Part shown: piece after piece, positions 1 to 41,635 of the stretch
Layout: the number at the start of each line of letters is the position of its first letter
Position numbering within the stretch: the first letter of the stretch is position 1
Assembly (NCBI GenBank): GCA_043228905.1
Contig: JBHGNT010000020.1
Location: 992,001-1,056,000 of the forward strand
DNA from: Azolla caroliniana
Taxonomy: Eukaryota; Plantae; Polypodiophyta
Direction of reading: 5' to 3'
Length of the DNA: 64,000 nucleotides
Notes under the pieces: model-generated
What the model saw: the letters and a program-made list of their open reading frames with translations, nothing else
Told to the model about the DNA's origin: nothing
Databases searched by the model: none
Made by a program: the position numbers and the translations under genes

Positions 1-218
1 TTAGTTATTAAGAACAAGAGATAAAAATAAATTAATCTGTTGATTAGCTTACATAGCTTGGTTTTGTTGATTTCTTTCATTTGTATGCGAGAAGAAACTA
101 AGGTTCAGTTTTTATTCGTACAGGTATAGGACTCCCATAATTATGCGACTACTCAACAATAATTTTATCTTGCCTATTTTATGTTTCTCATAAGATTCCA
201 CAGAAGTGGATGGAAATT

Positions 219-290
219 GCGCTTGTAGTCCAACGGTTAGGATAATTGCCTTCCAAGCAATAGACCCGAGTTCAACTCTCGGCAAGCGCA
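219..290 (+). tRNA. trnG-UCC: tRNA-Gly(UCC), perfect consensus copy
   Basis: GCGCTTG-TA-GTCC-AACGGTTA-GGAT-A-ATTGC-CTTCCAA-GCAAT-AGAC-CCGAG-TTCAACT-CTCGG-CAAGCGC-A: full cloverleaf, anticodon TCC, A-box (TAGTCCAACGG) and B-box (GTTCAACTC). Confidence 0.9.
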
Positions 291-914
291 TACCATGTTA
301 TTTCAACCAGTACTCACGATCTACAATAGAAATCTATTGAAGTCCCTGTCGTAATGTTACGTTCTTCGACAGTTTCATTAGCAAAGGTTTAAATGTCTCC
401 AACAAATTGATGTCCTATAAATATTTTGTGCAAAAACCGTTTTAATAAACTAGTTTCCTTTTTATCTTATACGAAACATAGTGTCACCTTTTGGTCGCTC
501 ACATAAAACATTGAAAACATTAATGACTCAGGTTTGATATGAGCCGTACAAATCAGGATATTTTCCTTCAATGCAATAACCAATATTTCAATATTCCGCA
601 AGTGCAAGCTATGTCCTTTAGAGCGATTATCGAATTGGATAGAGAAAATGTATTCGATAGATTCGAGAATATAAGATTGTTGAATGATTTTCATAATTAG
701 ATTGTAAGAACAAGAGATAAAAATGAATTAATTTGTTGATTAGCTTACAAAGCTTGGTTTTGTGGATTTCTTTCATTTGTATGCGAGAAGGAAGTAAGGT
801 GCAGTTTTTATTCGTACAAGTATAGGACTCCCATAATTATGCGACTACTCAACAATAATTTTATCTTGCCTATTTTATGTTTCTCATAAGATTCCACAGA
901 AGTGGATGGAAATT

Positions 915-986
915 GCGCTTGTAGTCCAACGGTTAGGATAATTGCTTTCCAAGCAATAGACCTGAGTTCAACTCTCGGCAAGCGCA
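915..986 (+). tRNA. trnG-UCC: tRNA-Gly(UCC), near-intact
   Basis: Consensus except C32->T and one T-stem G:U pair (CTGAG/CTCGG). Confidence 0.75.
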
Positions 987-1247
987 TACCATGTTATTTC
1001 AACCAGTACTCACGATCTACAACAGAAATTTGTTGAAGTCCCTATCGTAATGTTACGTTCTTCGACAATTTCATTAGCAGAGGTTTAAATGTCTCCAACT
1101 AATTGATGTCCTATAAATATTTTGTGCAAAAACCGTTTGAATAAACAAGATTCCTTTTTATCTTATAAGAAACAAAGCGTCACCGTCTGGTCGCTCACAT
1201 AGAACATAGAAAACATCAAGGAGTCAGGTTTGATATGAGATATTTGT

Positions 1248-1319
1248 GCGGCTTTAGCCTTACAAATAGGATATTTTTCTTGAAAGCAATAACCAACATT
1301 TCAATATTCCGCAAGCGCA
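1248..1319 (+). pseudogene. Example of the decayed 'B-half' tRNA-Gly relic present in most units
   Basis: gcggctttagcc.taca.(t/a)taggatatttttcttgaaagcaataaccaac.tttcaatattccgcaagcgca aligns without gaps over 72 nt to the A-half tRNA (about two-thirds identical by hand count); stems are destroyed. Confidence 0.85.
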
Positions 1320-38427: not shown

Positions 38428-39067
38428 TACCATCTTAGTTTAACTAGTACTCACAATTTAAAAGACAAATCTATTCAAGTCCTTTTGATAATGTCACGGT
38501 CTTCGAGAGTTTCATTAGCACAGGTTAAAAAGTCTCCAATAAATTGAAGTCCTATAAATATTTGGTCCAGAAACGGTTTTAATAAACTAGATTCGATTTT
38601 ATCTTATAAGAAAATTAGGGTCAACTTTTGGTCGCTCACATAGATCATAGAAAACATTAAGGACTCAGGTTTGATATGAGATATTTGTGTAGCTTTAGCC
38701 GTACAATTAGGATTATTATTTTTAAAGCAATAACCAACGTTTCAATATTCCGCAAGCGCAAGCTCTATCGTTTAGAGCGGTAATCGAATTGGATAAACAA
38801 AATGCATTCGATAGATACGAGAATATAAAATTGTTCAATGGCTTTCATAAGTTGATTGTAAGAACATGAATCATATTGAATTAATTTGATGAGTAGCTTA
38901 CATAGGTTATTTTTGAGGATTTCCTTCATTTGTATGCGAGAAGAAAGTAAGGTTCAGTTTTTATTCGCACAGGTATAGGACTCCCATAATTATGTGACTA
39001 CTCAACAATAATTTTATCTTGCCTATTTTAAGTTTCTGATAAGCTTCCACAGAAGTAGATGGAAATT

Positions 39068-39139
39068 GCGCTTGTAGTCCAACGGTTAGGATAATTGCCT
39101 TCCAAGCAATAGACCCGAGTTCAACTCTCGGCAAGCGCA
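39068..39139 (+). tRNA. trnG-UCC: tRNA-Gly(UCC), perfect consensus copy
   Basis: Identical to 219-290 although it lies 39 kb away in a more diverged unit. Confidence 0.9.
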
Positions 39140-39782
39140 TACCATGTTATTTCAACCAGTACTAACGATATAAAAGAGAAATCTATTCAAGTCCCTTTGA
39201 TAATGTCAGGTTCTTCGAGACTTTCGTTAGCAGAGGTTAAAAAGTGTCCAACAAATTTAAGTCCTATAAATATTTGGTCCAAAAACGGCCTTTAGAAACT
39301 AGGTTTGTTTTTATCTTGTAAGAAACTTAGGTTCACATTTTGGTCGCTCACATAGAACATAGAAAACATTAAGGCTTCATGTTTCATATGAGATATTTGT
39401 GCGGCTTTAGCCGTACACTTTGGATATTTTTTTTGAAACCAATAACCAACGTTTCAATATTCCGCAAGCGCATGTTTTGTCCTTTAGAGCGGTACTCGAA
39501 ATGAATACGTAAAATCTATTCGATGACATTGGAGAATCTAAAATTGTTGGATGACTTTCATAAGTAGATTGTAAGAACACGAGATCAAATTGAATTAATC
39601 TGATGATTAGCTTACATAGGTTGTTTTGGTGCATTTCTTTCATTTGTATGCGAGAAGAAAGTAAGGTTCAGTTTTTATTCGCACAGGTATACAACTCCCA
39701 TAATTATGCGACTACTCAACAATAATTTTATCTTGCGTATTTTAAGTTTTTAATAAGCTTCCATTGAAAGTAGATGGAAATT

Positions 39783-41259
39783 GCGCTTGTAGTTCAACGG
39801 TTAGGATAATTCCCTTCCAAGCAATAGACCCGAGTTCAACTCTCGGCAAGCGCATACCATGTTATTTCAACCAGTACTTACGATATAAAAGAGAAATCTA
39901 TTCAAGTCCCTTTGATACTGTCAGGTTCTTCGAGACTTTCATTAGCAGAGGTTAAAAAGTCTCCAACAAATTGAAGTCCTATAAATATTTGGTCCAAAAA
40001 CGGCTTTTAGAAACTAGGTTTGTTTTTATCTTATAGGAAACTTAGGGTCACATTTTGGTTGCTCACATAGAACATAGAAAACATTAAGGCTTCATGTTTC
40101 ATATGAGATATTTGTGCGGCTTTAGCCGTACACTTTGGATATTTTTTTTGAAACCAATAACCAACGTTTCAATATTCCGCAAGTGCATGTTTTGTCCTTT
40201 AGAGCGGTACTCGAAATGAATACGTAAAATCTATTCGATGACATTGGAGAATCTAAAATTGTTGGATGACTTTCATAAGTAGATTGTAAGAACACGAGAT
40301 CAAATTGAATTAATCTGATGATTAGCTTACATAGGTTGTTTTGGTGCATTTCTTTCATTTGTATGCGAGAAGAAAGTAACGTTCAGTTTTTATTCGCACA
40401 GGTATAGGAGTCCCATAATTATGCAACTACTCAACAATAATTTTATCTTGCCTATTTTAAGTTTTTAATAAGCTTCCACAGAAGTAGATGGAAATTGCGC
40501 TTGTAGTCCAACGATTAGGATAATTGCCTTCCAAGCAATAGACCCGAGTTCAACTCTTGGCAAGCGCATACCATGTTATTTCAACCAGTACTCACGATCT
40601 AAAAGAGAAATCTATTCAAGTCCCTTTCGTAATGTTACGTTCTTCGAGAGTTTCATTAGCAGAGGTTAAAATGTCTCCAACAAATTGATGTCCTATAAAT
40701 ATTTTGTGCAAAAACGATTTTAATAATGAAACTTAGGGTCACCTTTTGGTCGCTCTGATAAAACATAGAAAACATTAAGGACTCAGGTTTGATATGAGAT
40801 ATTTGTGCGGCTTTAGCCGTACCATTAGGATATTTTTCTTGAAACCAATAACCAACGTTTCAATATTCCGCAAGCGCAAGCTATGTCCTTTAGAGCGGTA
40901 GTCGAATTGGATAGACAAAATGTATTGGATAGATTCGAGAATATAAAATTGTTCAATGACTTTCATAAGTAGATTGTAAGAACACAAGATCAAATTGAAT
41001 TAATCTGATGATTAGCTTATATAGATTGTTTTCGTGGATTTCTTTTATTTGTATCCGAAAAGAAAGTAAGGTTCAGTTTTTATTCGCACAGGTATAGGAC
41101 TCCCATAATTATGCAACTACTCAACAATAATTTTACCTTGCGTATTTTAAGTTTTTCATAAGCTTCCACTAGAAGTAGATGGAAATTGCACTTGTAGTCC
41201 AACGGTTAGGATAATTGCCTTCCAAGCAATAGATCCGAGTTCAACTCTCGGCAAGCGCA
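39783..41259 (+). pseudogene. tRNA-Gly(UCC) variants at 39783, 40497, 41188 (two substitutions each)
   Basis: Full length, anticodon TCC, 2 changes each in stems or the D loop. Confidence 0.65.
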
Positions 41260-41635
41260 TACCATGTTATTTCAAGCAATACTTACGATATAAAAGAGAA
41301 ATCTATTCAAGTCCCTTTGATAATGTCAGGTTCTTTGAGACTTTCGTTAGCAGAGGTTAAAAAGTGTCCAACAAATTTAAGTCCTATAAATATTTTGTCC
41401 GAAAACGGATTTTAGAAACTAGGTTTGTTTTTATCTTATAAGAAACTTAGGGTCACATTTTAGTCGCTCACATAGAACATAGAAAACATTAAGGACTCAT
41501 GTTTGATATGAGATATTTGTGCGGCTTTAGCCGTACAATTTGGATATTTTTCTTGAAAGCAATAACCAACGTTTCAATATTCCGCAAGCGCAAGCTATGG
41601 CCTTTAGAGTTGTTCTTGAATTGGATAAACGAAAT

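What the first reader, a model, noticed from the sequence alone, without database searches (positions are those of the whole stretch)
1..41635. tRNA-Gly(UCC)-based satellite: about 50 tandem tRNA genes or pseudogenes in a 713-bp unit
Seen: a complete 72-nt cloverleaf with Pol III A/B boxes repeated head-to-tail over at least 41 kb; copies at 219, 2341, 5331 and 39068 are letter-perfect. Established: plant tRNA genes are mostly dispersed, although some tandem clusters are known. Inference: this is either an amplified Pol III locus or a satellite born from a tRNA gene. It could act as a chromatin boundary (TFIIIC/condensin loading), a tRNA-fragment source, or a (peri)centromeric repeat. I cannot tell whether it has been described. 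It is the best candidate for an undescribed system in this window.
Basis: partly seen in the sequence, partly recalled or inferred. Interest (0 to 1): 0.85.

Follow-up and report, generated by a model that had tools for sequence, protein, structure and literature searches.

The report
Tandem glycine tRNA gene array
A plant, likely a fern, carries a long run of about 45 head-to-tail glycine tRNA genes in which most copies are decaying, but the copies that seeded new stretches kept the tRNA intact, so this is likely a working gene family that keeps renewing itself rather than inert satellite DNA, a new member of a kind known from Arabidopsis and maize.

Summary
The array is real: 45 near-complete tRNA-Gly(UCC) copies over 1-41,652, four letter-perfect, running off the left edge. 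Only two young blocks (1-8.2 kb, 38.4-41.7 kb) keep an unbroken 713-bp rhythm. The middle is decayed and cut by Copia LTR elements. The 713-bp unit is an old dimer (333 + 380 bp): one half holds the intact gene, the other a dead tRNA relic. Single copies mutate at close to the spacer rate with a CG/CHG transition excess, so most are likely methylated and silent. Yet the three blocks' consensus genes differ at 0 of 72 sites against 8-12% in the spacer. On held-out trees the gene's internal branches are about six times shorter than spacer controls, with none in the acceptor or anticodon arm. New blocks were therefore seeded by intact genes. Best reading: a tandem tRNA gene cluster turning over by unequal crossing-over with selection on the tRNA product, like the Arabidopsis SYY/Pro and maize Ile clusters. 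Expression, boundary and centromere roles are untested. I found no Gly(UCC) homocluster or fern cluster in the papers searched, and the scan had not noted it elsewhere. New member of a known kind; interest 0.38.

The parts
1..41652 (+). Tandem array of a 713-bp unit carrying tRNA-Gly(UCC); open at the left edge, ends at a Gypsy element
1..8155 (+). Young left block: 11 genes, units 90.5-98.3% alike, partial four-unit (about 2.85 kb) periodicity, 7 of 11 genes with intact stems and TCC
8156..38355 (+). Old, decayed middle: 29 near-complete copies, none with both TCC and all stem pairs; deletions, local duplications, transposon insertions
38356..41652 (+). Young right block: 5 genes; block consensus differs from the left block at 53 of 641 spacer sites and 0 of 72 gene sites
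219..290 (+). tRNA-Gly(UCC) gene, major sequence; 72 nt, no intron, no encoded CCA, discriminator A; A and B boxes present
   Evidence: 71.4 bits
2341..2412 (+). Letter-perfect copy of the major gene
5331..5402 (+). Letter-perfect copy of the major gene
39068..39139 (+). Letter-perfect copy of the major gene in the right block
291..320 (+). Conserved 30-nt trailer (example); part of a 110-nt run (8 nt upstream, gene, 30 nt downstream) invariant between the three block consensuses
424..463 (+). First T4 (+134) and first T5 (+169) after the gene (example): the nearest standard Pol III stop signals are unusually far
179..210 (+). 5' flank -40..-9 (example): fastest-evolving 32-nt window in the branch-length test, not exceptional within the young blocks alone
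1961..2032 (+). Dead tRNA-derived relic at +333 of the unit (example); the two halves of the unit are 60% alike over 285 nt
13538..14836 (.). 1.3-kb unidentified insertion, copied (about 16,927-18,198) within a 2-kb, 96%-identical duplication 13,247-15,260 / 16,632-18,622
15886..16632 (+). Solo LTR of the local Copia family with a 5-bp target duplication
20316..21076 (-). Solo LTR of the same Copia family, inverted
29733..35388 (+). Full-length Ty1/Copia element inserted in a relic copy; LTRs 95-96% alike, 5-bp target duplication; its primer site does not match the array tRNA
41653..42170 (-). Start of the Gypsy element that ends the array; RT-RNase H fragment whose only named relative in two searches is from the fern Adiantum nelumboides

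Best explanation
[quoted passage not shown] Steps: (1) shown: a tRNA-bearing monomer of about 350 bp duplicated long ago; one gene died, and the 713-bp dimer became the unit. (2) Shown as pattern, inferred as mechanism: blocks of units expanded at different times, likely by unequal crossing-over. (3) Shown: copies then take mutations with a CG/CHG transition excess and receive LTR insertions; inferred: methylated heterochromatin, most copies silent. (4) Shown: founder lineages carry almost no gene changes; inferred: arrays that lost too many working genes were selected against, so intact copies are over-represented among founders. (5) Untested: expression, likely limited to some cells or stages as for the Arabidopsis SYY cluster.
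For: Block consensuses: gene 0 of 72 differences in all three pairings, spacer 53, 78 and 57 of 641 (Fisher p 0.003, 0.00015, 0.002; pairings not independent). The longest invariant run is 110 nt centred on the gene, the next 32 nt. With trees built on held-out spacer (28 of 63 units kept), summed internal branch length is 0.059 for the gene against 0.24-0.58 in nine 72-nt control windows, while terminal length is 1.25 against 0.91-1.79; p 6e-5 and 7e-7 on rounded substitution counts. The same holds outside the A/B boxes (p 1e-4, 3e-6), and the acceptor stem plus anticodon arm show 0 internal against about 49 terminal changes. The relic, of the same origin, evolves like spacer (internal 0.367). 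Transitions per site in the young blocks: CG 0.026, CHG 0.034, CHH 0.011, A/T 0.004. DNA contigs of two organism labels carry the same gene with other, unalignable flanks. The -40..-9 flank ranks first of 15 non-gene windows in branch length (23 of 45 copies), as reported for active tRNA genes (PMC6130373, passages).
Against: No expression was shown. In the middle, shared variants hit the gene as often as the spacer (45 in 72 sites vs 403 in 641, p 0.52), so broken copies were also duplicated locally. Private mutations in the gene are only mildly depleted (63 seen, 81.6 expected, p 0.02). The 5' flank excess is not significant in the young blocks alone (19 variants vs mean 14.2; 15% of windows equal or higher; 20 upstream of the relic), there is no C>T versus G>A strand bias, and the 3' flank is conserved rather than hypervariable. 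No run of four T lies within 130 nt of most intact genes, and the four perfect copies lack the upstream CAA. Trees of tandem repeats are distorted by recombination and gene conversion. The SYY array's copy number was argued to drift neutrally (PMC2886086, passages).
Confidence: 0.6

Rival explanations
1. Promoter-driven amplification without benefit: copies that still bind TFIIIC and Pol III stall forks or recombine more often, so intact genes seed new blocks although the plant does not need their tRNA.
For: Explains near-neutral decay of single copies together with intact founders, and avoids the weak selection expected on one copy among many. The conserved run extends 8 nt upstream and 30 nt downstream of the gene.
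Against: Only the A/B boxes should then be kept, but non-box sites are at least as conserved (internal 0.046 vs 0.092 for the boxes), with 0 internal changes in acceptor and anticodon arm.
Confidence: 0.15
2. Inert tRNA-derived satellite: the gene part is reset now and then by gene conversion from a large pool of identical copies elsewhere, which mimics selection.
For: 36 of 45 copies are damaged; methylation-type spectrum; LTR insertions; dimer anatomy with a dead relic; the same gene occurs with other flanks genome-wide, so donors exist.
Against: Conversion should shorten terminal branches too, but the gene's terminal length (1.25) is near controls (1.23-1.52). The twin relic diverged to about 60% while this gene kept all 21 pairs.
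Confidence: 0.15
3. Structural role: the array acts as a TFIIIC/condensin boundary or a (peri)centromeric element.
For: It borders about 15 kb of nested LTR elements and other tandem repeats. A human tRNA tandem repeat is implicated as a boundary element (PMC4041453; search listing and start of abstract only).
Against: A boundary needs the boxes, not the acceptor and anticodon arms that are conserved here. The array itself bears heterochromatin-type mutations and insertions. Plant tRNA genes are reported as depleted at centromeres (PMC13437025, passage).
Confidence: 0.07
4. The unit makes a second RNA (a tRNA-snoRNA dicistron or a SINE-like transcript) from the long trailer before the first T run.
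For: First T4/T5 at +134/+169; the first 30 trailer bases are conserved (p 0.05 and 0.002), and +6..+18 match a divergent flank family at 12 of 13 letters (compared by eye).
Against: Rfam finds nothing but tRNA at E up to 10 in a whole unit; beyond +30 the trailer is among the most variable parts (32 of 260 sites between young blocks).
Confidence: 0.03

Closest known systems
Arabidopsis SYY (Ser-Tyr-Tyr) cluster (PMC2886086 passages; PMC7544208 passages; PMC12308677 abstract and section 7)
   Same: About 40 kb of head-to-tail units that contain an internal gene duplication; a homogeneous core with variable, pseudogene-rich regions; heterochromatic; expansion by unequal crossing-over proposed.
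   Different: One isotype (Gly, UCC), no intron; the second gene of the unit is dead in every unit; a much larger share of broken copies (36 of 45 vs 13 of 54 clustered Tyr genes); LTR elements inside; expression unknown here, shown in root cap for SYY.
Plant tRNA homoclusters: maize Ile (39 genes, 18 kb) and Ala (42 genes, 74 kb), dicot Pro, cereal Gln (PMC13437025 section 10 and Table S3; PMC11700998 passages)
   Same: Single-isotype tandem genes at more than 5 genes per 5 kb, similar copy number and span.
   Different: No Gly(UCC) homocluster in the 5-kb summary of Table S3 (TCC occurs in 4 clusters, the only plant one being a potato Pro cluster); no fern in that table.
Expanded fern tRNA repertoire: Azolla filiculoides, 7,848 nuclear tRNA genes and more than 10,000 tRNA-like sequences (PMC13437025 Table S1 row; PlantRNA 2.0 preprint passages; PMC13578239 passages)
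   Same: A likely fern genome with many tRNA genes and pseudogenes.
   Different: Those papers ascribe the excess to genome duplication and repeats and describe no arrays in the passages read; the host here is not identified as Azolla.
5S rDNA arrays (recalled; compared with tRNA clusters in PMC7544208 passages)
   Same: Pol III gene with internal promoter in tandem; conserved gene, fast spacer; silent methylated fraction.
   Different: 5S arrays are the cell's only source of the RNA; a minority class with other T-arm letters exists here (about 3% of contig depth), so other Gly(UCC) genes probably exist.
tRNA- or SINE-derived satellites (PMC10702118 search listing only; plant cases recalled)
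   Same: Tandem unit with tRNA ancestry, dimer structure, decayed copies.
   Different: Here one tRNA per unit remains a full-scoring gene under constraint.

Membership tests
Plant tandem tRNA gene homocluster (Hummel 2026 definition) | At least 5 tRNA genes within 5 kb | tested here: met
   8 ARAGORN genes in 218-5403
Plant tandem tRNA gene homocluster (Hummel 2026 definition) | Single isotype, repeated in one orientation | tested here: met
   All hits on +; 27 of 30 ARAGORN calls Gly(TCC), the other 3 are point mutants of the same gene
Functional nuclear tRNA gene | Cloverleaf with A and B boxes, intact anticodon and acceptor | tested here: met
   71.4 bits, all pairs standard; 9 of 45 copies keep TCC and all 21 pairs
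Functional nuclear tRNA gene | Purifying selection on the gene body relative to flanks | tested here: met
   Met for founder lineages; weak or absent for single and middle copies
Functional nuclear tRNA gene | Upstream AT-rich/CAA element and nearby poly(T) terminator | tested here: inconclusive
   10-11 of 16 A/T at -35..-20; CAA in 11 of 40 copies, in none of the four perfect ones; 8-9 T in +1..25, like the non-flowering average of about 8 (PMC13578239 section 20); first T4 usually at +134
Functional nuclear tRNA gene | Transcribed, processed and charged | not testable with these tools
   No RNA holder listed; only contigs could be laid
Silenced heterochromatic tRNA cluster (SYY type) | DNA methylation and H3K9me2 over the cluster | tested here: inconclusive
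   Indirect only: CG+CHG transitions 7-fold over A/T sites, 2.6-fold over CHH
Inert tRNA-derived satellite | tRNA part evolves like the rest of the unit | tested here: not met
   Internal-branch deficit of about six-fold; met only by the relic and the middle copies
tRNA-snoRNA dicistronic gene | C/D or H/ACA snoRNA between tRNA and terminator | tested here: not met
   No Rfam match other than tRNA at E up to 10 in 1600-2420
Centromeric satellite or chromatin boundary | CENH3, TFIIIC or condensin occupancy | not testable with these tools
   No ChIP data and no whole genome held

The most novel reading that the evidence does not exclude
Fern genomes build part of their huge tRNA repertoire from satellite-like arrays that act as a sieve: copies decay neutrally under methylation, but only competent tRNA genes seed the next block. 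This array would supply a dedicated tRNA-Gly(UCC) pool in a specific stage, or for import into a plastid that has lost its own trnG-UCC (a loss reported for Azolla filiculoides in PMC13578239). Its array-specific T-arm letters make this directly testable.
Probability: 0.12. Interest if true: 0.65.

Novelty: new member of a known kind. Interest (0 to 1): 0.38.

Why it matters
Whether plant tRNA clusters are adaptive or by-products is named as unresolved in a 2026 review (PMC13578239, passage), and the SYY array was once read as drifting neutrally (PMC2886086). This array carries its own controls: a dead twin relic in each unit, old and young blocks side by side, and held-out spacer. They give a clean sequence signal of constraint on the whole tRNA in founder lineages. 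If the host is a fern, it also offers a concrete route to the thousands of tRNA genes and pseudogenes reported in fern genomes. It is not a new class of element.

Tried and rejected
No whole genome is held, so array size, position and the dispersed Gly(UCC) genes could not be read. Run search: no RNA holder listed; two guessed-RNA contig sets (X13, X15) gave 0 laid records; neither is evidence on expression. Shares of 0.13 in two sediment runs are not used; X11 gave 2 contigs only. Summed contig depth over the gene is about ten times that over this spacer, but the tool states that it is no copy number, so none is given. A metagenome scan with the 17-nt T-arm motif gave 119 loci; the 5 with any BLAST hit to the unit match only within the tRNA, at most 68 nt, and none matches the spacer, so the motif alone is not diagnostic. 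The Copia pol search did not place the host (best named hits 61-63%, angiosperms). Leader-trailer pairing (-10..-2 with +10..+18): mean 6.8 of 9 pairs, not formed in the minimum-energy fold of the perfect copies; dropped. Array tRNA as retrotransposon primer: no 9-nt primer-site match in the expected orientation in the window. LTR targeting upstream of tRNA genes: five insertion sites at scattered unit positions, too few to judge. Strand-biased deamination: none. One search's upstream branch-length figure (1.3) came from a rough alignment and is superseded. The 99.3% LTR identity is an artefact of the gapped aligner; BLAST values are used. Literature searches for a description of this array or of a fern or Gly(UCC) cluster found none. 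Unseen supplements may bear on novelty: the tables of tandem clusters in 50 plants, one of them a fern, in PMC12652284 could not be read, and no tRNA-gene discussion was in the held supplements of the Azolla/Salvinia paper. PMC9526063 (passages) held nothing relevant.
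Full report
Observation. The array is in the sequence. Rfam finds 43 tRNA matches at gathering score, ARAGORN 30 genes, 27 of them Gly(TCC), and BLAST 58 hits of which 45 are near-complete. Copies at 219, 2341, 5331 and 39068 are identical and score 71.4 bits with all pairs standard. The gene is 72 nt, has no intron and no encoded CCA, and ends in A. G1-C72, C2-G71, G3-C70, C35, C36 and A73 are the glycine identity elements of eukaryotes (recalled, no call). 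The unit is 713 bp, but only 21 of 44 spacings are 687-726 bp. 31,442 bases match the unit. The array is open at base 1 and ends at 41,652.

Anatomy. The unit is an old dimer: positions 3-283 and 337-617 align at 60% over 285 nt, E 5e-14. The second half begins with a tRNA relic at +333 that Rfam does not see even at E 10 and that does not fold as a cloverleaf. There are three zones. A young left block (1-8155) has units 90.5-98.3% alike, with a partial four-unit periodicity. A young right block covers 38,356-41,652. Between them lies a decayed middle with deletions, local duplications of 0.6-2 kb, two solo LTRs, a duplicated 1.3-kb insertion and a full Copia element with LTRs 95-96% alike. 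Genes with TCC and all 21 stem pairs number 7 of 11 left, 2 of 5 right and 0 of 29 in the middle.

Host. No genome is held. The only named relative of the flanking Gypsy RNase H in two searches (the 120 best rows of 327, all 32 rows) is from Adiantum nelumboides, 62% identical. Unreviewed notes on other windows also read the genome as a fern. The Copia pol search named only angiosperms, at 55-63%. 'Likely a fern' is therefore a weak inference. The repeat is held by DNA runs under two organism labels in several studies. Their contigs carry this spacer at up to 99% and the same gene with other, unalignable flanks and in shorter periods, so the family is larger than this window. A minority class, about 3% of summed depth, has G at window positions 269 and 274; I infer that these are other Gly(UCC) genes, which would make the array's transcripts distinguishable.

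Is the gene under constraint? Majority sequences of the three zones differ at 0 of 72 gene sites in all pairings and at 53, 78 and 57 of 641 other sites. The invariant run is 110 nt, from 8 nt upstream to 30 nt downstream of the gene; the next longest is 32 nt. To avoid circularity I built trees on one part of the spacer and measured branch lengths on held-out windows, using 28 of 63 merged units (34 passed a first coverage filter; 6 more were dropped). Internal length is 0.059 for the gene against 0.24-0.58 in nine control windows, the relic among them at 0.367; terminal length is 1.25 against 0.91-1.79. Fisher tests on rounded counts give p 6e-5 and 7e-7. Outside the A/B boxes p is 1e-4 and 3e-6, and acceptor plus anticodon arm show 0 internal against about 49 terminal changes. 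These p values ignore recombination and tree error. A gene-centred, leave-window-out repeat on 23 of 45 copies agrees: gene halves 0.0 and 0.086, other windows 0.13-0.68, with 3 of 20 windows failing. Against this: in the middle, shared variants hit gene and spacer equally (p 0.52), and private mutations in the gene are only mildly depleted, 63 against 81.6 expected. So single copies decay almost freely, and it is the founder lineages that stayed intact.

Chromatin and transcription. In the young blocks private transitions run at 0.026 per site at CG, 0.034 at CHG, 0.011 at CHH and 0.004 at A/T, which I read as germline methylation; the gene body shows similar rates on small counts. Active tRNA genes have hypervariable 5' flanks, also in Arabidopsis (PMC6130373, passages). 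Here the -40..-9 window ranks first of 15 non-gene windows for both internal (0.68) and terminal (1.91) length. The excess is not significant within the young blocks alone, there is no strand bias, and the 3' flank is conserved, so this is a hint only. The first T4 is usually 134 nt downstream. The 8-9 T in the first 25 nt match the non-flowering average (PMC13578239 section 20). CAA is present upstream in 11 of 40 copies, none of them the four perfect ones. Expression could not be examined.

Mechanism. The best reading (0.6) is a tandem gene family that renews itself: blocks expand from single units, likely by unequal crossing-over as proposed for the SYY array (PMC2886086, passages); copies are methylated and decay; selection on tRNA supply keeps intact genes over-represented among founders. 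Conservation of the acceptor and anticodon arms points to the RNA product rather than to promoter binding. Rivals are promoter-driven amplification (0.15), an inert satellite reset by conversion (0.15), a structural role (0.07) and a second RNA in the trailer (0.03).

Comparison. It meets the published definition of a tRNA homocluster (PMC13437025: passages, section 10, supplement searches and part 1 of 23 of Table S3). Arabidopsis clusters are methylated and silent in most tissues (PMC7544208, passages), and the SYY cluster has a homogeneous core with pseudogene-rich flanks and is switched on in the root cap (PMC12308677, abstract and section 7). In the 5-kb summary of Table S3, TCC occurs in 4 clusters, none a homocluster, and no fern is listed. 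Other surveys name Pro, Ser/Tyr, Ile, Gln, Ala and Cys clusters (PMC11700998 and PMC12652284, passages). Azolla has 7,848 annotated tRNA genes and more than 10,000 tRNA-like sequences, ascribed to genome duplication and repeats. Eight paper searches found no description of this array, but subscription papers are largely missing and the supplement of PMC12652284 was unreadable. The scan's index shows no look-alike elsewhere.

Verdict. A real, well-supported tandem tRNA-Gly(UCC) gene cluster with signs of selection on founder copies and of silencing and decay in most copies. It is a new member of a known kind, with a new isotype and probably a new lineage. Interest 0.38.

Noticed in passing
window 8656-8727; also 24990, 19395, 26083, 36980, 37641, 35730: Anticodon-shifted copies: 8656 keeps all stem pairs but reads TCT (ARAGORN calls Arg); 19395 and 26083 read TAC (called Val). 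Annotation pipelines would count them as other isotypes.
   Followed up: partly
window 296-308 (trailer +6..+18) and run X1/X8 loose ends: A 13-nt trailer motif is shared (12 of 13 letters, by eye) with a flank family that otherwise does not align; it is lost after the relic. Possibly a non-standard terminator or processing signal.
   Followed up: partly
run X1 joints: Contigs show the same tRNA repeated at periods of about 100 bp, i.e. other, shorter-unit arrays of this gene elsewhere in the genome.
   Followed up: no
window 29733-35388, 46074-51854, 15886-16632, 20316-21076: One Copia family with 750-960-bp LTRs that contain GC-rich tandem repeats of 25-113 bp accounts for four insertions, three of them inside the array.
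   Followed up: partly
window 51924-56740: A second, older Copia element with 294-bp LTRs 91% alike.
   Followed up: no
window 13538-14836 and about 16927-18198; related stretch at 56822-56988: A 1.3-kb insertion with an AG microsatellite, not identified; 73% alike over 187 nt to a stretch outside the array.
   Followed up: no
window 59214-60962 and 61814-62544: Two short AT-rich tandem arrays with 72-bp (about 24 copies) and 66-bp (about 11 copies) units.
   Followed up: no
unit positions 623-648 (about window 129-154): An imperfect 26-nt palindrome 65-90 nt upstream of each gene; weak (E 0.16), partly overlapping a 31-nt invariant run.
   Followed up: no
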